Source: a virus
Taxonomy: Duplodnaviria > Heunggongvirae > Uroviricota > Caudoviricetes
Direction: 5' to 3' (one strand)
Length of the DNA stretch: 20,834 nucleotides
Virus record (IMG/VR): IMGVR_UViG_2778261058_000016
Span: 1 to 20,834 of that record
A program made the position numbers and the translations under genes. Shown in pieces: positions 1 to 18,739 of this stretch (position 1 is the first letter of the stretch; each line of letters begins with the position of its first letter). Under the pieces are notes generated by a model. It did no database searches, was not told the DNA's origin, and saw nothing but the letters and a program-made list of their open reading frames with translations.

Positions 1-1182
1 GTGCTCACAGATACTAAGTTACGAAAGTCGCTCGGAAAGCGCAGGGAGAAGGTTGAGGTTCTCTCTGATTCAAACGGACTGAATGTGCGTCTAAGCATAA
101 CCGGTTCTATCACATTCTTCTATCGGTATCGCTGGCTGGGCAAGCCTGTGCAGTTAAGCATTGGTGACTATCCAACTATTTCACTCTCTCAGGCGAGAGA
201 CAGAAGACAGCAGTTCAGAGCGTGGTTGAGCGAGGGGTATGATCCCCGGCAGAAAGTGCTGGTGGAGAAGGCTGAAAGAATAGAAGCGCTGACAGTCGAT
301 GAGGCCTATGAGTACTGGGTGAAGCATTACTGTATCCCGGAGGGGCTCATTAAAATTGATGCGAACGGTAAAAGCTTCAAAAAGCACATTAGCCCGCGGC
401 TAGGGAAGGCTATTGTGGACCAGACAGTGAAGGCGAACTGGCTTGAGGTTTTCGATGCAATGGGGAGGAGTGTCATATCAGGTGAGATGCTGTCTCTGAC
501 CAAGCGTGCTTTCCGGTTCTGCCACAACAGGGGAGTAATCAAAACCAATCCACTGGAGTCGTTACGAAAATCGGATGTCGGTATAGCAGCGAAGATGAAG
601 GAGAGGCGGCTTTCAGATAGTGAGATAAAGCAGGTGTGGGATACTCTTTTCTCTCTGCCTCCCTCTCAACAACTGGTAATCAGGTTCATGATTCTAACCG
701 GATGCCGCGCCGCAGAAATAAGAAAGTCGAGATGGGAGTGGTTCGATTTCAAAGAAAGGTCCTGGACTGTGCCGGCAGAGGATTATAAGACCGGTAAAAC
801 TATTCGTCGTGCGTTGCCGGATACTGCGGTCAGGCTTCTGCAAGAGCATCAACGCGGATCAATCACTAAGCACGTTCTGACTCCAGCACAGTTCCGGGAT
901 AAAGAAGATGTCCCACCTGGGCAGACGCTTGTCTCGACGTACTCAATGCAGGTAGTGCGTAAGAACGGAATGAAGGAGTGGTCATTACATGATTTGCGGA
1001 GAACGGTGGCCACGCGCCTGTCCGAGCTTGGCGCTCCACCACACGTTATAGAAAAGTTGCTCGGACATCAGATGGGCGGGGTTATGGCCAGATACAACCT
1101 TCATGACTATATGGACGATCAGCATGAATGGCTGGATATCTGGCAGAAGCATTTGCAGGAGATTATTGGGTATCCCCTTTAG
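1..1182 (+). CDS. int: Tyrosine recombinase / phage integrase, P4-type, with N-terminal arm-binding region; may lack 1-2 codons at the window edge
   Basis: 393-aa ORF from GTG at position 1. N-terminus LTDTKLRK...FFYRYRW resembles the arm-binding domain of P4-like integrases. C-terminus has HDLRRTVATRL (H-x-x-R) and a downstream Tyr in MARYNLHDY, consistent with the catalytic residues of tyrosine recombinases. Confidence 0.85.
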   Translation: MLTDTKLRKSLGKRREKVEVLSDSNGLNVRLSITGSITFFYRYRWLGKPVQLSIGDYPTISLSQARDRRQQFRAWLSEGYDPRQKVLVEKAERIEALTVDEAYEYWVKHYCIPEGLIKIDANGKSFKKHISPRLGKAIVDQTVKANWLEVFDAMGRSVISGEMLSLTKRAFRFCHNRGVIKTNPLESLRKSDVGIAAKMKERRLSDSEIKQVWDTLFSLPPSQQLVIRFMILTGCRAAEIRKSRWEWFDFKERSWTVPAEDYKTGKTIRRALPDTAVRLLQEHQRGSITKHVLTPAQFRDKEDVPPGQTLVSTYSMQVVRKNGMKEWSLHDLRRTVATRLSELGAPPHVIEKLLGHQMGGVMARYNLHDYMDDQHEWLDIWQKHLQEIIGYPL

Positions 1183-1378
1183 CAAAGTTGACCTTGTCTT
1201 CCCATGACTTGATTTCTGACTCACGCCAGCGCTTCGGATTTCCGGGGATGGTTGGTTTCGGGAATGGGCATGAAAAGCTGGATGGCATACGTGCGGGAGT
1301 GCTCCAGAAATAGAGCGTGCTGCGCGATATTTTGTAGCGCGCAAGGATTTCGCTTGTAACCAGGATGCTGTCATTCAT
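1163..1378 (-). CDS. AlpA-family (Phage_AlpA / MerR-like HTH) regulator or excisionase-like protein, 71 aa
   Basis: I retranslated the minus strand: MNDSILVTSEILARYKISRSTLYFWSTPARMPSSFSCPFPKPTIPGNPKRWRESEIKSWEDKVNFAKGDTQ. The pattern SRSTLY...FPKP...WRESEI..W matches AlpA/Vis-type proteins. ATG at 1378 sits 6 nt after a GGAGA Shine-Dalgarno; the ORF track's 101-aa version (to 1468) is probably an upstream over-extension. The 3' end overlaps the integrase 3' end by 20 nt (convergent). Confidence 0.65.
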   Translation of the reverse strand: MNDSILVTSEILARYKISRSTLYFWSTPARMPSSFSCPFPKPTIPGNPKRWRESEIKSWEDKVNFAKGDTQ

Positions 1379-1387
1379 CTGTGATCT

Positions 1388-1419
1388 CCAGAAAAAGAGC
1401 GCCCGGCGCGGGGCCGGGC
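1388..1419 (-). terminator. GC-rich hairpin (7-bp stem GCCCGGC / GCCGGGC, 5-nt loop) followed on the minus strand by CTCTTTTTCT; intrinsic terminator and/or the sub-terminal hairpin of the IS right end
   Basis: Perfect inverted repeat at 1401..1419 with an A-run at 1392..1396 on the plus strand, which is a T-run downstream of the hairpin on the minus strand. It lies about 85 nt past the tnpB stop and immediately before the alpA-like RBS. Confidence 0.45.
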
Positions 1420-1620
1420 AAAATGGGGGATAACTGAGCAGTGCTTTCGCACCCAATAGCCAGCTCATAACTGGCTATCAGTTGCTTGACATCCTCCCCG
1501 TCCTAAAGGAAGGGGATTCCTACAGCTAGACGGCGATGCCCCGCCGCGAGAATGTTCTTTGCGGCGTTCACGTCGCGGTCATGAGTGGTTCCGCACTCAC
1601 AACAAGTCCATTCTCTTATT
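1391..1620 (-). ncRNA. Putative omega-RNA (TnpB guide RNA) overlapping the tnpB 3' end and the IS right end
   Basis: In IS200/IS605 elements the omega-RNA is encoded across the 3' end of tnpB and the right end. This region holds three hairpins, one spanning the tnpB stop at about 1496..1515, plus those at 1456..1478 and 1401..1419. Extent is a guess and no covariance model was applied. Confidence 0.25.
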
Positions 1621-2594
1621 CGCAGGCCTGCTCTACCTTTCGGACTGTTGGCGGAGATAGCCCCGCAACACGAACAAGCTTGGGTGGAATAACTTTCGTT
1701 GACCACTTCAAACACCACTGACCGCGCAATCGCTTTATATTCCAGTTGTGTTTTGAGCATGAACCAGCCAGCGTCCAAAATGCTTTTTGCCATTTTGGTT
1801 TTAACCAGTTTCTTACTGCTCGCGTCGCCTACGAATATTGCCGCATGGCTGTTAACCAGCGCCGTGCTGTACTTGTGCAGGGCATCTTTGCGGCGGTTCT
1901 TAATTTTGGCGTGTATGGCGCGTACACGGGCTTTTTTGTTTGCACGCTGTGCCTTTCCTAATGCAGGCTCCAGATCTCGATAGAATCTACCGGCAATCAG
2001 CGGATCACCTTCTGACGGGGTGGCGTAGTCTTTCAGCCCTAAATCGATACCCACGGCGGAAGTGGCCGTTGATGGGACAGTTTCGACCTCTACGCAAACA
2101 TTGAAGTACCAGCGTCCACGGCTGTCTTCTGAAAAGCTTCCAGCACGGAATTTAAATCCTCCCAAGCCGTAGCTATCCCAGACATTAAAAATCCTGCCAG
2201 CGAACCGCACCGCGCCATTTTTCCAGACAGCGCTGCCTATTTTAAACGGCACCCAACCCAACGAACGGCGAGATCCCCCACTGACTCGCCAGCGTAAGCG
2301 AGAGCGTTTAAATTGCTTCCGTGCCTTGCCGTGAATTGCTGCGATTTCCTGTACGGTATGGCTGGGGATGGTATACCCGCGCTCTTTTCGCTCTTTAAGG
2401 AGCGGTTTCTGAACATCAAACGCCGATAGCCATTGCGGTTTTTGCGCGCCAAAAAAGCCAGCGTTGCCGTATGCTGCGCTGGTTATCTCGTTTGCCAGAT
2501 TAAAGATCTGATTGACCTCAAAGGCCATCTGCCGCAAAACGGCTGCGTGCTTGTCTTTAATTCGGACAGATAGTGTTTTGATCTGAATGTTCAT
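1503..2594 (-). CDS. tnpB: TnpB, RNA-guided endonuclease of the IS200/IS605 family (RuvC-like domain plus zinc finger)
   Basis: About 363 aa from the ATG at 2594 (MNIQIKTLSV...). RuvC-I-like GIDLGLKDY, and a C-terminal CSCCGAIS...CCECGTTHDRDVNAAKNI (CxxC...CxxC zinc finger with RuvC-III HDRD/NAAKNI). The ORF track's start at 2663 adds 23 unlikely N-terminal residues. Confidence 0.85.
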   Translation of the reverse strand: MNIQIKTLSVRIKDKHAAVLRQMAFEVNQIFNLANEITSAAYGNAGFFGAQKPQWLSAFDVQKPLLKERKERGYTIPSHTVQEIAAIHGKARKQFKRSRLRWRVSGGSRRSLGWVPFKIGSAVWKNGAVRFAGRIFNVWDSYGLGGFKFRAGSFSEDSRGRWYFNVCVEVETVPSTATSAVGIDLGLKDYATPSEGDPLIAGRFYRDLEPALGKAQRANKKARVRAIHAKIKNRRKDALHKYSTALVNSHAAIFVGDASSKKLVKTKMAKSILDAGWFMLKTQLEYKAIARSVVFEVVNESYSTQACSCCGAISANSPKGRAGLRIREWTCCECGTTHDRDVNAAKNILAAGHRRLAVGIPFL

Positions 2595-2684
2595 GGTCGT
2601 ATGTACATATAATGTGTTGATGTTCAGTTGATCGTCGTTATTTGGCGGGATGTCACCCGCCACACGGCGATGCGCTGATGCTGT

Positions 2685-2954
2685 TTACTTCCGCCAGGCG
2701 AAGCTAATTGGCTCCGGCGTAATCCACAGGTGGCGCATGTTCGCCACGTTCACCACATCATAATCCCGCGGGTAAATCTCCACGGCATCCCGATCCCCAT
2801 AGCCAACGGCTGACTTTATCTCCTGCAATGCATCCCAACTGATGCCATCCTTCCACCGGCCAGAGCTGCCAATGCTGGTGGTGTTCACCGTCAGGCGAAT
2901 AACACCGTTCTCTTCCTGAAACTCCTGAACAAGAAAGTAAGAGTTAGCCCACAC
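2685..2954 (-). CDS. Hypothetical protein, 89 aa, leftward, immediately upstream of the IS left end
   Basis: Protein-like composition (MWANSYFLVQEFQEENGVIRLTVNT...EIYPRDYDVVNVANMRHLWITPEPISFAWRK) and no conflicting gene on the other strand. The start is a GTG and the frame stays open upstream without start codons, so this may be the C-terminal remnant of a longer truncated gene. No family recognised. Confidence 0.35.
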   Translation of the reverse strand: MWANSYFLVQEFQEENGVIRLTVNTTSIGSSGRWKDGISWDALQEIKSAVGYGDRDAVEIYPRDYDVVNVANMRHLWITPEPISFAWRK

Positions 2955-3010
2955 GTTGCTCCGCTTGGGGTCGTGGCATCGTACCGGCCATTGCGATTCC
3001 GGTAACCGCG

Positions 3011-3910
3011 ATGTTCCGGGATATCGAGAAGCGATATATCGGCATCAAGCGAGCGCTGAAATCTCTGTTCGACCAGCGCCTTACCGGGCGTGAGCGCGAG
3101 GTTAACAGCCATAACTGGCACTTCCTTTGTCATGACCACGGCGCGGATATGCGCCTCTACCAGGTAAACGCCGGCAAGTTCATCTACGACATGTCGGCGC
3201 AGGAACTGGCGGACCTGCTGGAAGCGGTGCAGGCCATTCTCGACGATTACCTGCTGGATGGTGGCGAGCAAAATCTCTGGGCGATGGATTACGTCGTCGC
3301 AGAAGCGCAGCGCGGCACGCTTGAGGCATTCAATAACCTCTCGCAACAGTCGCAGGTGTATGCCAGTCAGACGACGCTGCAGCAGCTTTTAAGCAGTCCC
3401 GGTCATCTTAATCAGGTGGCAGCGGCAAGGCTGACAACGTTCAGTGACTGGAAGGTCATCAGCGATACAGCCCGCGGCGACCTGACCAACATCATCACCG
3501 ATGCGGTCGCGCGCGGGGTGAACCCTCGCGAGACGGCCAGCGTAATCAGCAAGCGCCTCGATGTGTCGATGTCGAAGGCAAAGACCATCGCTCAGACTGA
3601 GCAGGTCGGCGCACTGCGGCAGGCACAATGGAACGAAACCGACTGGGCTGCTGACCGGCTGGGGCTGAATACCGGCCTACTGTGGTTGTCAGCGCTAAAA
3701 CCAACGACGCGAACCTGGCATGCCAGCCGCCACGGCAAGGTCTACACCACCGAAGAGATTCGGGACTTCTACGCCGAGAACGGCAACCGGTACAACTGCT
3801 ACTGCAGCCAGATCCCAGTGCTGCTCAACGACGACGGCAGCATCTTCAATGAGGGGCTGGCTGAGAAACTGGCGAAAGAGAGGAAAGCTTGGAAATCCGA
3901 GTCGGAGTGA
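3011..3910 (+). CDS. Phage head morphogenesis protein (Mu F-like / SPP1 gp7 family minor head protein)
   Basis: 299 aa. The segment KAKTIAQTEQVGALRQAQWNETDW...TRTWHASRHGKVYTTEE fits the Mu F-like signature (TIA-TE ... W ... R-x-H-x-G-K). First start in frame is ATG 3011, with an in-frame stop at 2945..2947 upstream. Confidence 0.7.
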   Translation: MFRDIEKRYIGIKRALKSLFDQRLTGREREVNSHNWHFLCHDHGADMRLYQVNAGKFIYDMSAQELADLLEAVQAILDDYLLDGGEQNLWAMDYVVAEAQRGTLEAFNNLSQQSQVYASQTTLQQLLSSPGHLNQVAAARLTTFSDWKVISDTARGDLTNIITDAVARGVNPRETASVISKRLDVSMSKAKTIAQTEQVGALRQAQWNETDWAADRLGLNTGLLWLSALKPTTRTWHASRHGKVYTTEEIRDFYAENGNRYNCYCSQIPVLLNDDGSIFNEGLAEKLAKERKAWKSESE

Positions 3911-3949
3911 TATCATCATGTAAATGATAAAGTTGCTTAAGGGTGAGCA

Positions 3950-4465
3950 ATGAGCAGTGTAACTCCGGCAGAAGTCGGTTCATTCTTTTTATCTCTAGTT
4001 GTTCCAATCACCACTGGGGTTGTGGCAGCAGGATTTACTGCATTTTTCGCTCTGAATCGATTTTACAAAGAAAAATGGTGGGAGAAGAAACATGCTGCGT
4101 ACAATCAATTAATTGATAAATTATTTGAAATCAAAGCAATTTATTCCCACGCCTCAGATTTTTACGAGGCTGAATACAATGCTGGTATGTATGGTAGGCC
4201 GCCGCCGAAAGGGTCTGTTGATTGGAATACATTCCATCAAATAAAAGCGCAACTCCATCGGTTTTATGTGCTCGCACCAATCTCTCTAAGCAATAATACA
4301 AGGGATTTGCTCAATAATTTCTTCAAGCAGGACGCTGATTCCGATCATAGTGTTTACGAAGAGGGTTACCCAGATTTTGTGGCATACAATGATATGACGA
4401 TTGCGACCCAGCAACTTATTGATGCCATTGTCTTGGACGCTGAAAAAGAACTTAAATTTAAATAA
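3950..4465 (+). CDS. Membrane-anchored hypothetical protein, 171 aa (N-terminal TM helix plus soluble domain); AT-rich moron
   Basis: RBS AAGGGTGAG upstream of ATG 3950. N-terminal hydrophobic helix FFLSLVVPITTGVVAAGFTAFFAL followed by a charged/aromatic soluble region. Visibly lower GC than the flanking phage genes, and followed by its own terminator. No family recognised. Confidence 0.6.
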   Translation: MSSVTPAEVGSFFLSLVVPITTGVVAAGFTAFFALNRFYKEKWWEKKHAAYNQLIDKLFEIKAIYSHASDFYEAEYNAGMYGRPPPKGSVDWNTFHQIKAQLHRFYVLAPISLSNNTRDLLNNFFKQDADSDHSVYEEGYPDFVAYNDMTIATQQLIDAIVLDAEKELKFK

Positions 4466-15897: not shown

Positions 15898-16276
15898 TTT
15901 TGTTCGGAAGGTGATCGGCGTGCCATGGGCTAACCGGGCCTGTTCGTTCGAGAAGTTGGATTGCTGGGGGCTGGTGGTGCTGTATTACCGGCACGTTCTC
16001 GGCATTGAACTGCACCAGACGCCGGACTACGAAGCCGGTGAGGATTTCTTCACCTGCTATCAGGGAGACGTCGTTTTCTGGCGCAAGCTCGATAAACCGG
16101 TCGATGGCGGGATATTCGTCGGGTACCGCGGCGCGCAACCTGCGCATGTTGGCCTGGTACTGAACCGGCAGGCGCTGCACTCGCGCGGCGAGAACGGAAG
16201 CGTGCGCATGGACTCGTTGCTGGTCATTCAGCGGGCATTCACCAAAGTGGAGTTTTTCGAATATGGCGTTGATTGA
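15860..16276 (+). CDS. Tail-associated NlpC/P60-family cysteine peptidase (lambda gpK-like)
   Basis: 138 aa. FVRKVIGVPWANRACSFEKLDCWGLVVLYY carries the Cys-containing DCWGLV motif, with a downstream His in AHVGLVL, typical of NlpC/P60 catalytic residues. Overlaps the upstream gene by 38 nt. Confidence 0.7.
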   Translation: MTQRNIPACSTSDFVRKVIGVPWANRACSFEKLDCWGLVVLYYRHVLGIELHQTPDYEAGEDFFTCYQGDVVFWRKLDKPVDGGIFVGYRGAQPAHVGLVLNRQALHSRGENGSVRMDSLLVIQRAFTKVEFFEYGVD

Positions 16277-17081
16277 GCTTCAGCGTTTCCCGGGGACGCC
16301 AAAAGAACGCTACAGGGTGCCAAACGGCACCCTTTTTTATGACTGGCTGGTGGCAAATGACGCTACCTTTCACCGCGATCTGCTGATTGTCCGGAACGGC
16401 GTAAAGCTTTGTGATGATGACGAGCTGGCGTTTGAGCTGAGCGAACTGGACAACATCCAGATTTTCGACCAGCCAAAGGGCATTGTCAGTGACATCCTGA
16501 GCCCGATTTTCAAAGTTGTCGGGTCTGTATTTTCTTTTCTGGCGCCTAAGCCGGCAATCGCAAATACCGGTGGTAACACTGTCGACTCGCCAAACAATAG
16601 CCTGACCGGTCAGACAAACACCGCGCGCGTCTATAAAGCCAAACCGGACATATACGGGCAGGTGCGTTCTTTCCCAGACCTGATTCAGGAATCACTGTTT
16701 GAGTACATCAGCACTGGCGTGCGAGACGGTGGCAAGAAGTACGTGACGGAATGGATGTGTATCGGGATTGGCAAGTACAATTATGAGTCTGTGCGCTACT
16801 CAGAATCGAGCCTTGGAAGCATGGCCGGAGCCGAATACCAGTTCATTCAGCCTGGCGAGGTAATCCCGTCGATTAACGAAGGCTACAGCTTCGATGACGT
16901 CGATGGGCAGGAAGTCCCGGGTGCGAACCAGGGCGAATCGTTCCCTGTTGAAACCGCTACAGCCAACACAGTGGTCAGCGGCACGTATGCCGGCGGTCAG
17001 ATAGCGGTGAAAATCGTTAAACAGGCGGAATTTGACTATTTCATGGCCTGGTATTGCCGCATGCCGTCTCGTTCGACATAA
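16263..17081 (+). CDS. Tail assembly protein (lambda gpI-like N-terminal region), 272 aa
   Basis: Position after the NlpC/P60 gene. Internal hydrophobic patch ILSPIFKVVGSVFSFLAP followed by a polar N/T/S-rich segment resembles gpI-type proteins. The C-terminal about 100 aa may belong to the downstream J-like protein (see findings). Confidence 0.45.
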   Translation: MALIELQRFPGTPKERYRVPNGTLFYDWLVANDATFHRDLLIVRNGVKLCDDDELAFELSELDNIQIFDQPKGIVSDILSPIFKVVGSVFSFLAPKPAIANTGGNTVDSPNNSLTGQTNTARVYKAKPDIYGQVRSFPDLIQESLFEYISTGVRDGGKKYVTEWMCIGIGKYNYESVRYSESSLGSMAGAEYQFIQPGEVIPSINEGYSFDDVDGQEVPGANQGESFPVETATANTVVSGTYAGGQIAVKIVKQAEFDYFMAWYCRMPSRST

Positions 17082-18739
17082 ACGTCACTTACGCGACTGC
17101 CTCTGGTTCGGTAACTACTGACGCCACGTTCTCCGGCACGCTTGTTTCAGCTGTAGAGACAAACGACGGCGCGGTGATAAACCCAGTCCGCTGGTACACC
17201 TTCACCATGGGCGACCTGGATGGCCCGCCAGATATCCCCGCTACCGCAACGATCAACACGACGAAGTTCGTGCTGAACGACAACGAAGCGCTGGTCGTAG
17301 GTCCGTTCTTTTCTCCGGTTGAATCAACGCAGTTGTGGATCCATACCCAAAGTAGCCTCGGTCCGAAGAAGCAGACCAACTGGAAGGTGGTGCTTTGGAA
17401 AATTGATGACGACTACAACATGATCCCTGGCACTCAGCAGACGCTGGTGTTCAAGCAGACAACCTGGCACAAGCAGGATAGCGAGACATTCTATCGGACC
17501 GACAAGATAGTGCCGACTGGCGGCTTCGGGAAGTACGCCATTAACCTGCAGCGCACCGATAACTCTGGTGATGCGTCGATACTCAAACTTGAGGAAATCC
17601 ACGCCGTAAACGTGCGAACAAACGTTGTCCATCCAACCGATACGCTGGTGCGCGTGAAGGTTAGGGCTACAGAGAACGCGCTGGGCAGCCGCGACCGCAA
17701 ATACAACGCCCTGGTAACGCGGCACACCATCACGTACGATCTGGACACGCAGACGGTAGATTACACGCTGCGTCCGTCGCGTTCATTCGCTGATGCAGTG
17801 GCTCACACATGGCTGATTATGGGTGAGCAGCCCGTAAGCAGCATTGACCTGTATGGGTTGTATTCGATCGCCGAAAGCCTGCCTGATGAGCGCCTTGGTT
17901 ACTTCGACTATACCTTTGATGATGAGAACGACTCTCTGGGAGACCGCGTGCAGGCGATCTGCAATGCGGCATCTGTGGTGGCGTACTGGGACGACGGTGT
18001 GCTCACGTTCACCAGGGACCAGAAAGTTGGCTACCCGGCGGCCGTATTCAACCGGGCCAACATGAAGACGGACGAGTACAAAATGACGTACGAGGCTACT
18101 CTTCCAGGCGGTTACGACGGCGTGCAGGTGTCCTACGTTCACCCGACCACGAACAACAAGACGTACATCAACTACCGTGTTCTGAACGGCGTTATCGTCG
18201 AGCAGGAAGCGGAGAACCCGAATAAGATCGAAATTGTCGGCTTCCGTAACGAGTATCAGGCGCGCGAACGCGCGCTGCGCGAAACGAAGCGCCTAATCTA
18301 CTCCCGGGTGAAGATGAACGCAAAAGTGTTTGAGGACGGTATTATCCAGGTTGGCAGCGTCATTCAGATGCCTGATATCTACGACAGCAACCAGCAACAG
18401 GGTTACATCACCGGCCGCGCCGGGAATAACTTCGATACCAGCGAGCCGCTCACCTTTTCCGGGGATATGTACGTGCTGGTGACCGACAGCCTGGGTAATC
18501 CGACGCTGCGCTATCCGGCGACGGCCCGCGGTGACACGAAGTACGGCTTCACCGCGGCAATACCCGACATTCAGCCCAACATATGGAACGGAGACACTGT
18601 ACAGCTCCCGTCGCGCTACCTCATTGCGACAGTGGAGGAACTGGACAGTCAGCTATGGACGGTCAACAGCATCAAACCGAACACAGATAACACGGTATCT
18701 CTGACCGTCGCGGAATACAGCGACGCAATCTACCAATAA
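17054..18739 (+). CDS. Tail tip / host-specificity protein, lambda gpJ-like central region, 561 aa
   Basis: Long beta-rich protein in the J position. The ORF-track start is a TTG inside the upstream gene; the first in-frame ATG is about 50 codons later and no candidate start has a good RBS, so the true start is uncertain. Confidence 0.5.
   Translation: MPHAVSFDINVTYATASGSVTTDATFSGTLVSAVETNDGAVINPVRWYTFTMGDLDGPPDIPATATINTTKFVLNDNEALVVGPFFSPVESTQLWIHTQSSLGPKKQTNWKVVLWKIDDDYNMIPGTQQTLVFKQTTWHKQDSETFYRTDKIVPTGGFGKYAINLQRTDNSGDASILKLEEIHAVNVRTNVVHPTDTLVRVKVRATENALGSRDRKYNALVTRHTITYDLDTQTVDYTLRPSRSFADAVAHTWLIMGEQPVSSIDLYGLYSIAESLPDERLGYFDYTFDDENDSLGDRVQAICNAASVVAYWDDGVLTFTRDQKVGYPAAVFNRANMKTDEYKMTYEATLPGGYDGVQVSYVHPTTNNKTYINYRVLNGVIVEQEAENPNKIEIVGFRNEYQARERALRETKRLIYSRVKMNAKVFEDGIIQVGSVIQMPDIYDSNQQQGYITGRAGNNFDTSEPLTFSGDMYVLVTDSLGNPTLRYPATARGDTKYGFTAAIPDIQPNIWNGDTVQLPSRYLIATVEELDSQLWTVNSIKPNTDNTVSLTVAEYSDAIYQ

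What the first reader, a model, noticed from the sequence alone, without database searches (positions are those of the whole stretch)
1380..2690. TnpB-only IS200/IS605-type element apparently inserted between a leftward 89-aa gene and the alpA-like gene
A TnpB ORF (RuvC-like plus zinc finger) is bracketed by perfect hairpins positioned as expected for IS200/IS605 sub-terminal structures: 2644..2661 on the left-end side, 1456..1478 and 1401..1419 on the right-end side. The inferred right end abuts the Shine-Dalgarno of the alpA-like gene, and the inferred left end abuts the stop codon (2685..2687) of the 89-aa ORF. That suggests insertion into a short intergenic spacer of a leftward operon. TnpB is an RNA-guided nuclease, so the right-end region should encode an omega-RNA whose guide matches the flank. 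The family is known, but this copy sits where it could affect excision control of the prophage.
Basis: partly seen in the sequence, partly recalled or inferred. Interest (0 to 1): 0.5.

Follow-up and report, generated by a model that had tools for sequence, protein, structure and literature searches.

The report
TnpB element with degenerate left end
A known kind of transposon-derived RNA-guided nuclease gene (tnpB with its guide RNA) sits in a lambdoid prophage of E. coli, with a canonical right end but no recognisable left end, so it is ordinary and probably no longer mobile.

Summary
The tnpB gene is real (1503..2594, minus strand). The inserted block is 1486..2684, not 1380..2690.

**Right end.** It lies at 1486 (…GGAAT-CCCCTTCCTTTAGGACGGGG-AGGATGTCAA). 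Over 100 relatives share this motif and diverge right after it. The two "right-end hairpins" (1401-1419, 1456-1478) are not IS DNA. They belong to a roughly 105-bp phage module upstream of xis/alpA that many phages carry without the IS.

**Empty sites.** True empty sites exist: DUF7694 stop codon + C + GCAACTGATAGCCAG….

**Guide RNA.** The omega-RNA scaffold (about 1486..1683) shows strong compensatory covariation. A covariance model built without the window hits 1486-1620 (E 1e-43).

**Left end.** The 90 nt at 2595..2684 lack the family's TAM, DNA guide and hairpin. No tnpA is present, and every copy found is the same insertion. The unit therefore looks immobilised.

**Protein.** TnpB has the RuvC-II Glu-to-Gly change with a compensating Glu, a described clade feature, so it is probably still a nuclease. 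That is inferred, not shown.

**Target and expression.** Its predicted target, T(G/C/A)AC + GCAACTGATAGCCAG, is present in at least 120 viral contigs. In this window a deletion near 3005 removed the early operon, so the gene is probably silent here.

Known kind, modest interest.

The parts
1486..2684 (-). Inserted block relative to empty sites (1199 bp): degenerate left side, tnpB, omega-RNA scaffold and right end
   Evidence: Empty sites read DUF7694 stop + C + GCAACTGATAGCCAG (L174, L176, L181, L182, L205, L211, L212, L214, L216). Similarity breaks at 1485/1486.
1503..2594 (-). tnpB, 363 aa. The ATG at 2594 matches the start in relatives; RefSeq calls GTG at 2663. Key residues: D184, G256 (at the canonical RuvC-II Glu position), E300 (candidate replacement Glu), D341, zinc finger C307/C310/C331/C334.
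   Evidence: Relatives of 363 aa start at the aligned ATG.
1486..1519 (-). Right end: DNA guide GAAT (1516-1519), hairpin CCCCTTCC-TTTA-GGACGGGG (1496-1515, overlapping the stop codon TAG 1503-1505), then 10 nt ending in the terminal motif TCAA (1486-1489)
   Evidence: GAAT paired with TCAA in 103 of 104 relatives.
1486..1683 (-). Predicted omega-RNA scaffold overlapping the 3' end of tnpB. Best-supported helices are 1530-1547, 1520-1529 and 1495-1516.
   Evidence: RNAalifold on 40 sequences gave 46 pairs, 19 with compensatory changes. Helices 6-8 are 94-100% paired; 0 of 500 shuffles reach the observed covariation. Model R1, built without the window, hits 1486-1620 (-) at 149 bits, E 1e-43.
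1466..1485 (-). Predicted guide and target segment, GCAACTGATAGCCAGTTATG. This is phage DNA immediately 3' of the right end.
   Evidence: Position rule from the TnpB literature (PMC10055086). Relatives diverge exactly here. The same sequence follows TGAC, TAAC or TCAC in unoccupied phages.
1381..1485 (-). Conserved lambdoid intergenic module upstream of xis/alpA; not part of the IS. It contains hairpin 1456-1478 and the terminator-like hairpin 1400-1420 with a T run, then the Shine-Dalgarno of alpA.
   Evidence: Present without the IS in E. coli prophages, phage HK639 and at least 120 viral contigs. Terminator scan. Recombination breakpoints at 1388, about 1413 and about 1440.
2595..2684 (-). 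90 nt between the DUF7694 stop and the tnpB ATG, holding hairpin 2643-2662 (TGGCGGG-TGACAT-CCCGCCA). It is a non-canonical or truncated left side.
   Evidence: No similarity to any relative's upstream region. The family hairpin motif occurs only once in the window, at the right end. The expected TNAC TAM and xAAx DNA guide are absent.
2685..2954 (-). DUF7694 gene (89 aa), the upstream neighbour in the phage early-left operon
   Evidence: Pfam PF24746, E 4e-16. Homologues at 82-99% identity (best segment) occur in 80 viral contigs with varied downstream content.
1163..1378 (-). alpA/xis-like helix-turn-helix gene (71 aa)
   Evidence: RefSeq names it 'helix-turn-helix transcriptional regulator' or 'AlpA family transcriptional regulator'. 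It has only a weak NCBIfam hit to Xis_Gifsy_1, E 0.007.
1..1182 (+). Tyrosine integrase. In related genomes the prophage sits next to yciA-tonB.
3001..3008 (.). Deletion junction. The interior of the DUF4222 gene is joined to the interior of the minor head (Mu F-like) gene, removing the early, replication, lysis and terminase regions of the prophage.
   Evidence: The window is colinear with strain 53 only up to 3008 and resumes in the minor head gene.

Best explanation
This is a tnpB-plus-omega-RNA unit derived from an IS605-group (IS608-like) element.

**Insertion (shown).** It inserted once into a lambdoid phage, 3' of a T-N-A-C motif formed by the upstream gene's stop codon plus C. That point is the upstream edge of a conserved module that precedes xis/alpA. 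The right end is intact and lies at 1486.

**Left side (shown).** The left side has lost, or never had, the family's left-end hairpin, DNA guide and TAM. No TnpA is present. The unit therefore most likely cannot be excised or transposed. It spreads only with the phage's early-left gene block, through recombination inside the conserved module.

**Mechanism (inferred).** In intact prophages tnpB would be co-transcribed with the leftward early operon. The 3' part of that transcript would be processed into an omega-RNA whose roughly 16-20-nt guide is GCAACTGATAGCCAG…. The TnpB-omega-RNA complex would cut DNA carrying T(C/G)AC followed by that sequence, which is the unoccupied site of related phages. 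The resident copy would be spared because TCAA precedes the match there.

**In this window (inferred).** A deletion near 3005 removed the early promoter region, so the gene is probably not expressed and is a relic.
For: **Identity and catalytic residues**
- Pfam and NCBIfam hits; homology to the ISDra2 TnpB structure at E 1e-23.
- D184 and D341 are kept. G256 replaces the RuvC-II Glu in 127 of 127 relatives. E300 is invariant in 126 of 127. The zinc-finger cysteines are invariant.
- This matches the rearranged-RuvC-II clade, which was predicted to be active (PMC10691335).

**Right end at 1486:**

**Family geometry**
- The hairpin is followed by 10 nt ending in TCAA, with DNA guide GAAT (103 of 104 relatives).
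- The TAM covaries with the left-end DNA guide: TTAT/AAAA, TTAC/AAAG, TGAC/CAAG, TCAC/GAAG.

**Empty sites and target prevalence**
- Empty sites.
- TGAC 109, TAAC 7, TCAC 3 among 120 unoccupied viral contigs, against 5 occupied.

**Omega-RNA:** structure covariation and the covariance-model hit.

**Left-side degeneracy:**

**Single insertion and mosaic spread**
- Only one orthologous insertion is known: 9 of 5426 E. coli genomes, plus viral and metagenome contigs with the same flanks.
- The IS and the left genes are about 100% identical in backgrounds whose int/alpA modules differ, with breakpoints inside the module.

**Expression**
- No sigma-70-like promoter between 1100 and 3100; a terminator-like hairpin at 1400-1420.
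- The early region is deleted in this window.
Against: - Nuclease activity, omega-RNA production and TAM preference were not measured.
- The closest relatives with an intact left end use TCAC, whereas most unoccupied phage sites have TGAC. Single TAM changes abolished cleavage in another TnpB (PMC10055086). The usable target pool may therefore be small.
- The tnpB ATG has no clear Shine-Dalgarno sequence.
- Orthologous copies are 99.7-100% identical, so selection on the ORF cannot be assessed.
- The left side keeps an IS608-like layout: a stop-codon-adjacent junction, 22 nt, then a 20-nt hairpin. A divergent but functional left end is not strictly excluded.
Confidence: 0.6

Rival explanations
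1. It is an intact non-autonomous IS. The left end would begin at the DUF7694 stop codon, with hairpin 2643-2662 as the left-end structure, and a TnpA supplied in trans could mobilise it.
For: - The inserted block begins exactly after the stop codon.
- A perfect 7-bp hairpin lies 22 nt from that junction, close to the 16-19 nt spacing seen in relatives.
- The right end is perfect.
Against: - The hairpin sequence is unrelated to the family hairpin, which is the same at both ends in relatives.
- The 4 nt before it (CGTG) do not fit the xAAx DNA guide. The flank (TAAA/AAAC) does not fit TNAC.
- No copy with other flanks was found in E. coli genomes, plasmids, phages, viral contigs or metagenome contigs.
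- Relatives 81-87% identical share nothing upstream of the ATG.
Confidence: 0.1
2. It is a decaying relic with no activity. The ORF is intact only because the insertion is recent.
For: - The left end is degenerate and there is no tnpA.
- No promoter was found and the tnpB start has no clear Shine-Dalgarno (sequence).
- Copies are nearly identical, so there is no sign of purifying selection.
- Strain A14 carries a truncated copy, and an IncF plasmid keeps only a 353-bp right-end remnant of a related element.
- The prophage in this window is itself deleted.
Against: - The ORF, all catalytic and zinc-finger residues, the omega-RNA helices and the right end are fully intact.
- The unit is kept in prophages with different int/xis modules and at two chromosomal sites.
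Confidence: 0.25
3. It is a nuclease-dead, TldR-like RNA-guided transcription factor recruited by the phage.
For: - It is prophage-borne and immobilised, as fliC-associated TldRs are (10.1101/2023.11.30.569447).
- The canonical RuvC-II Glu is missing.
Against: - Only one of the three canonical positions differs, and that change is a clade-wide trait with a conserved replacement Glu.
- The C-terminal zinc finger and RuvC-III are complete.
- The guide position holds ordinary flank DNA at a transposon-type right end, not a promoter target.
- Relatives are multi-copy transposons with tnpA.
Confidence: 0.03

Closest known systems
IS608 / IS605-group elements of the IS200/IS605 family (peel-and-paste, Y1 TnpA plus TnpB)
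   Same: - Right-end geometry matches what I recall for IS608: a hairpin, then 10 nt, then TCAA, with DNA guide GAAT.
- The family's left ends have a 4-nt T-N-A-C/T TAM, 16-19 nt, then a hairpin, with the DNA guide complementary to the TAM.
- Close relatives on Klebsiella plasmids carry a divergent tnpA.
- Insertion leaves no target duplication.
   Different: - This copy has no tnpA and no canonical left end.
- It is known only as one insertion.
- The IS608 numbers (19 nt, 10 nt, TTAC/AAAG, TCAA/GAAT) come from my own knowledge of the IS608 literature and were not checked against a paper here.
TnpB-omega-RNA (OMEGA) homing nucleases, e.g. ISDra2 and ISGst2 TnpB
   Same: - RuvC plus zinc-finger protein.
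- Guide RNA scaffold overlapping the 3' end of the gene and ending at the right end, with the flank as guide.
- The terminal motif differs from the TAM, so the resident copy is spared (PMC10055086).
   Different: - The RuvC-II Glu is replaced by Gly, with a candidate replacement Glu 44 residues downstream.
- There is no partner TnpA, so no excision product exists to re-cut. The only matching targets are unoccupied sites in other phages.
RuvC-II-rearranged TnpB clade (RIIr-5 of Altae-Tran et al. 2023)
   Same: Glu to Gly at RuvC-II with a conserved alternative Glu, a DRDxN motif and a C4 zinc finger.
   Different: Placement on that paper's tree was not tested. The paper says the biochemical consequences of the rearrangement remain to be studied experimentally.
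Rfam HgcC (RF00062), an RNA family overlapping the 3' ends of archaeal IS1341-type tnpB genes
   Same: The 3' hairpin and tail are alike: CCCCnnCCUUUAGGnCGGGGAGGAnGUCA. A 2015 study found a right-end-like tetraloop motif of tnpB 3'-overlapping RNAs inside HgcC (PMC4615843).
   Different: The score is 19 bits against a gathering score of 50 (E 0.3), so it is not a member by Rfam's criterion.

Membership tests
IS200/IS605 transposable element (IS605/IS608 group) | TnpB (OrfB_IS605 plus zinc ribbon) gene | tested here: met
   Pfam PF01385 and PF07282; NCBIfam guided_TnpB at 230 bits.
IS200/IS605 transposable element (IS605/IS608 group) | Right end: sub-terminal hairpin, about 10 nt, terminal tetranucleotide, with a matching DNA guide 5' of the hairpin | tested here: met
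   GAAT-hairpin-AGGATGTCAA at 1486-1519, shared with over 100 relatives that diverge right after it.
IS200/IS605 transposable element (IS605/IS608 group) | Left end: TAM, 16-19 nt, family hairpin, with a DNA guide complementary to the TAM | tested here: not met
   Only one family hairpin in the window, at the right end. 2595-2684 is unrelated to any relative. CGTG stands in place of xAAx, and the flank is TAAA/AAAC rather than TNAC.
IS200/IS605 transposable element (IS605/IS608 group) | Y1 transposase TnpA in the element or window | tested here: not met
   tblastn with the Klebsiella-plasmid TnpA found nothing below E 0.19. Absence is allowed for non-autonomous copies.
IS200/IS605 transposable element (IS605/IS608 group) | Insertion 3' of the TAM without target duplication; an empty site exists | tested here: met
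   Empty sites read stop codon + C + GCAACTG…; TGAC, TAAC or TCAC precedes the target in 119 of 120 unoccupied contigs.
IS200/IS605 transposable element (IS605/IS608 group) | Evidence of mobility (copies at different sites) | tested here: not met
   All copies with this left side share the same flanks. Other collections hold only relatives up to 87% identical, and these differ upstream of the ATG.
TnpB-omega-RNA RNA-guided nuclease | RuvC acidic triad and C4 zinc finger | tested here: inconclusive
   D184, D341 and C307/C310/C331/C334 are present. The canonical RuvC-II Glu is Gly256. E300 is invariant in the clade and fits the published rearrangement, but its position in the fold was not checked.
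TnpB-omega-RNA RNA-guided nuclease | Conserved structured RNA scaffold overlapping the 3' end of the gene and ending at the right end | tested here: met
   19 pairs have compensatory changes; 95.5% of cells are paired against 44-52% when partners are slid; 0 of 500 shuffles reach the observed score. Covariance-model hit at 1486-1620, E 1e-43.
TnpB-omega-RNA RNA-guided nuclease | RNA-guided, TAM-dependent DNA cleavage | not testable with these tools
   Needs an interference or in vitro cleavage assay.
RuvC-II-rearranged TnpB clade (RIIr-5) | Gly at the RuvC-II Glu position plus a conserved alternative Glu | tested here: met
   G256 in 127 of 127 and E300 in 126 of 127 relatives; description in PMC10691335. 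Tree placement was not tested.
TldR (nuclease-dead TnpB-like repressor) | [quoted passage not shown] | tested here: not met
   One clade-wide substitution only; the C-terminus is complete.
Rfam HgcC (RF00062) | Score at or above the gathering threshold (50 bits) | tested here: not met
   19 bits, E 0.3, at 1473-1664 (-).

The most novel reading that the evidence does not exclude
The immobilised TnpB-omega-RNA unit may serve the phage as a homing or marker-exclusion device. When the early-left operon is expressed during induction or mixed infection, it would cut the unoccupied site (T-G/C-A-C + GCAACTGATAGCCAG…) carried by many related lambdoid phages.

The competitor genome would then either be destroyed or be repaired from the IS-bearing phage. 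Repair would copy the IS and its neighbouring early-left genes into the competitor.

The observed mosaic fits this reading but also fits ordinary lambdoid recombination. The IS and left genes are about 100% identical in backgrounds whose int/xis modules differ, and the breakpoints lie 45-100 nt from the cut site. My literature searches found no report of TnpB acting between phages in this way, but they were not exhaustive.
Probability: 0.12. Interest if true: 0.6.

Novelty: new member of a known kind. Interest (0 to 1): 0.3.

Why it matters
This is mostly a correction of anatomy. The exact ends, the target site, the predicted guide and the predicted TAM of a prophage-borne TnpB are now defined. 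The two structures taken for IS ends are shown to be a widespread phage intergenic module.

The analysis also gives a clean natural example of the TAM-to-DNA-guide pairing rule across a large TnpB clade that has a rearranged RuvC site.

If the unit is active, it offers a simple test of two things. One is whether Glu-to-Gly-rearranged TnpBs cut DNA. The other is whether a stranded TnpB can act between competing phages.

Tried and rejected
- **Rfam scan of 1..4000.** It gave only a sub-threshold HgcC hit and nothing for the 1381-1485 module.
- **Defining the left end from other copies.** Upstream regions of 16 relatives do not align with the window. Short-word BLAST of the 90 nt against all fetched loci gave only chance matches. 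Distant blastn against E. coli genomes and plasmids found nothing upstream of the ATG other than the same insertion. The one metagenome scan returned two contigs with the same flanks.
- **Possible homology of hairpin 2643-2662.** It matches a second hairpin in Salmonella plasmid pRSE40 at 14 of 16 positions, but 11 of 500 shuffles score as well. I left this as suggestive only.
- **dN/dS on orthologous copies.** There are too few differences, 0-1 synonymous.
- **First generic left-end hairpin finder.** It picked up unrelated hairpins and was replaced by a motif-based search. The motif script mislocated the left ends of L223 and L224, which I read by eye instead.
- **Covariation in the phage module.** The sample was seeded with an exact 25-nt pattern, so its conservation is biased and I drew no conclusion.
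- **Defence-system library.** It only re-found the Cas12f/TnpB homology.
- **Not attempted.** ISfinder naming (no access) and a 3D check of E300 (the structure tools return no coordinates).
Full report
**What is in the sequence**

On the minus strand, a 363-aa ORF at 1503..2594 carries Pfam OrfB_IS605 and the Cas12f1-like TNB zinc ribbon. It scores 230 bits on NCBIfam guided_TnpB. It aligns to the solved ISDra2 TnpB at E 1e-23. RefSeq annotates the same gene from a GTG at 2663. Relatives of 363 aa all start at the aligned ATG, so 2594 is the better start.

The 89-aa ORF at 2685..2954 is a DUF7694 protein ending in TAA at 2685-2687.

**Right boundary**

megablast against 5426 complete E. coli genomes shows a sharp break at 1485/1486.
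- About 30 genomes match 1381..1485 and stop there.
- Six plasmid records (about 67-78 kb; the one read is IncF) match 1486..1846 at 77% identity and start there.

An alignment shows unoccupied loci (strain XJ5.2, phage HK639) reading …CTGGCTATCAGTTGC|GTCAG…. The window reads …CAGTTGC|TTGACATCCTCCCCGTCC….

Four divergent copies share …GGAATCCCCnnCCTTTAGGnCGGGGAGGATGTCAA and diverge immediately afterwards. They are the window, plasmid pET210, Salmonella phage LPSTLL and the IncF remnant. The same holds in over 100 relatives down to about 43% protein identity.

The right end is therefore 1486. Its hairpin is 1496-1515 and overlaps the stop codon.

The hairpins at 1401-1419 and 1456-1478 lie in a roughly 105-bp module. 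That module sits upstream of various xis/alpA genes in many lambdoid prophages and phages that lack the IS. The module ends with a terminator-like hairpin and T run at 1400-1420, followed by the alpA Shine-Dalgarno.

**Left boundary and empty sites**

DUF7694 homologues at 82-99% identity (best segment) occur in 80 viral contigs. In nine of them the stop codon is followed by a single C and then GCAACTGATAGCCAG…, which is a true empty site. The DNA that is extra in the window is thus 1486..2684 (1199 bp), beginning right after the stop codon.

**Family rules**

Relatives with intact left ends show a 4-nt motif, then C plus 16-19 nt, then a hairpin of the same sequence type as the right-end hairpin.

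The 4 nt just before the left hairpin covary with the flanking motif: TTAT/AAAA, TTAC/AAAG, TGAC/CAAG, TCAC/GAAG. At the right end, TCAA pairs with GAAT in 103 of 104 relatives.

This is the IS608-type pairing of DNA guide with cleavage site. That comparison rests on my own knowledge of the IS608 literature. The TAM, terminal-motif and guide logic is also described for ISGst2 in PMC10055086.

The closest relatives with a left end use TCAC.
- Klebsiella plasmid elements are about 83% identical and carry a divergent tnpA.
- Salmonella plasmid pRSE40 is 87% identical.

**The window's left side fails these rules**

- The family hairpin motif occurs only once in the 20.8-kb window, at the right end.
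- The 90 nt at 2595..2684 match no relative. Copies 81-87% identical lose similarity exactly at the ATG.
- The 4 nt before hairpin 2643-2662 are CGTG, not xAAx. The flank is TAAA/AAAC, not TNAC.
- No tnpA is present.
- Every sequence that contains this left side has the same flanks. That covers nine E. coli genomes, the viral contigs that carry this tnpB and two metagenome contigs.

I conclude that the unit is most likely immobilised. A left-side truncation or replacement after a canonical insertion is the simplest history, but that history is inferred.

**Guide RNA**

An alignment of 40 diverse right-end regions gives a consensus structure with 46 pairs, 19 of them with compensatory changes.
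- The three 3'-proximal helices (window 1530-1547, 1520-1529, 1495-1516) are 94-100% paired.
- Up to 26 of 40 sequences are changed on both sides of a pair.
- None of 500 shuffles reaches the observed covariation.
- Sliding the partners drops pairing from 95.5% to 44-52%.

This holds even though the region encodes the TnpB C-terminus.

A covariance model built from 37 relatives, without the window, hits 1486-1620 (-) end to end at 149 bits, E 1e-43. Because the model also captures coding conservation, this hit is not independent of tnpB homology.

Rfam gives only a sub-threshold HgcC match over 1473-1664. A 2015 study found a right-end-like tetraloop motif of tnpB 3'-overlapping RNAs inside HgcC.

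**Protein state**

D184 and D341 align with ISDra2 D191 and D361. ISDra2 E278 aligns with Gly256, and this is so in 127 of 127 relatives. Glu300 is invariant in 126 of 127, and the four zinc-finger cysteines are invariant.

This is the described RuvC-II rearrangement, Glu to Gly with an alternative Glu. It was predicted to be active, and that paper leaves its biochemical consequences to experiment (PMC10691335). The protein does not meet the criteria for nuclease-dead TldR proteins.

**Predicted target**

The guide would be GCAACTGATAGCCAG… (1485 downwards). It is preceded by TGAC in 109, TAAC in 7 and TCAC in 3, where the T-N-A is the upstream gene's stop codon. Five contigs are occupied.

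The resident copy has TCAA in that position.

Whether this TnpB accepts TGAC as well as TCAC is unknown. This matters because single TAM changes abolished cleavage in ISGst2 TnpB.

**Context and expression**

In strain 53 the insertion lies in an apparently complete prophage of roughly 45 kb next to yciA-tonB. There it sits at the distal end of the leftward early operon.

Prophages with different int/alpA modules, and one at dsdC, carry the identical IS plus left genes. The breakpoints are at 1388, about 1413 and about 1440, inside the module. The unit therefore travels by recombination in that linker.

No sigma-70-like promoter is found between 1100 and 3100, so expression probably depends on the early operon.

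In this window the prophage is deleted from about 3005, inside the DUF4222 gene, to the interior of the minor head gene. The upstream promoter region is gone, and the copy here is probably silent.

**Verdict**

This is a known kind of element with corrected anatomy.
- Shown: identity, right end, empty sites, RNA structure, non-canonical left side, single insertion.
- Inferred: nuclease activity, guide processing, TAM, loss of mobility, silence in this window.

The idea that it influences excision control has no support.

Noticed in passing
window 1381-1485 (minus strand): A roughly 105-bp intergenic module is shared by many lambdoid prophages and phages, always just upstream of varied xis/alpA genes. 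It holds hairpin ATAGCCAG…CTGGCTAT, a GTGC-GAAA-GCAC mini-hairpin and a terminator-like hairpin. It begins one base after the stop codon of varied upstream genes and has no Rfam match. It also acts as a recombination linker, with breakpoints at 1388, about 1413 and about 1440.
   Followed up: partly
window about 3001-3008: Deletion junction joining the interior of the DUF4222 gene to the interior of the Mu F-like minor head gene. The window's prophage therefore lacks its early, replication, lysis and terminase regions. None of the 5426 complete E. coli genomes has this junction.
   Followed up: partly
L009 (E. coli A14, NZ_CP028760) 2854-3741: An independent deletion in the same prophage lineage starts inside tnpB (equivalent to window 2376) and ends in an Acb1-like/portal gene. 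This leaves a truncated tnpB next to the head genes.
   Followed up: partly
window 3950-4465 (+): A 171-aa ORF with an N-terminal hydrophobic stretch lies in a 39% GC island between the minor head and scaffold-like genes, whose flanks are 55-60% GC. It is absent from that position in strain 53 and has no Pfam or PADLOC match. It looks like a moron.
   Followed up: partly
window 16263-17081 and 17054-18739 (+): The tail host-specificity (TipJ-like) gene appears split into two overlapping ORFs spanning 2477 bp. Strain 53 has a single 2478-bp gene, so a 1-bp frameshift is possible.
   Followed up: no
L003 (IncF plasmid p4422IncF) 2501-2853: A 353-bp remnant of the 3' end and right end of a related tnpB (77% identity) lies between ykiE/fecI and a partial integrase. 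Matches of the same extent and identity occur in five further plasmid records of about 67-78 kb.
   Followed up: no
L069-L092 (uncultured Psychromonas MAG): More than 20 copies of a related tnpB-only element (about 60% protein identity) occur in one genome, all flanked by TTTAAC on the left. It appears to be an actively spread member of the same Glu-to-Gly clade.
   Followed up: partly
window 1163-1182: The integrase (+) and the alpA-like gene (-) converge and overlap by 20 bp at their 3' ends.
   Followed up: no
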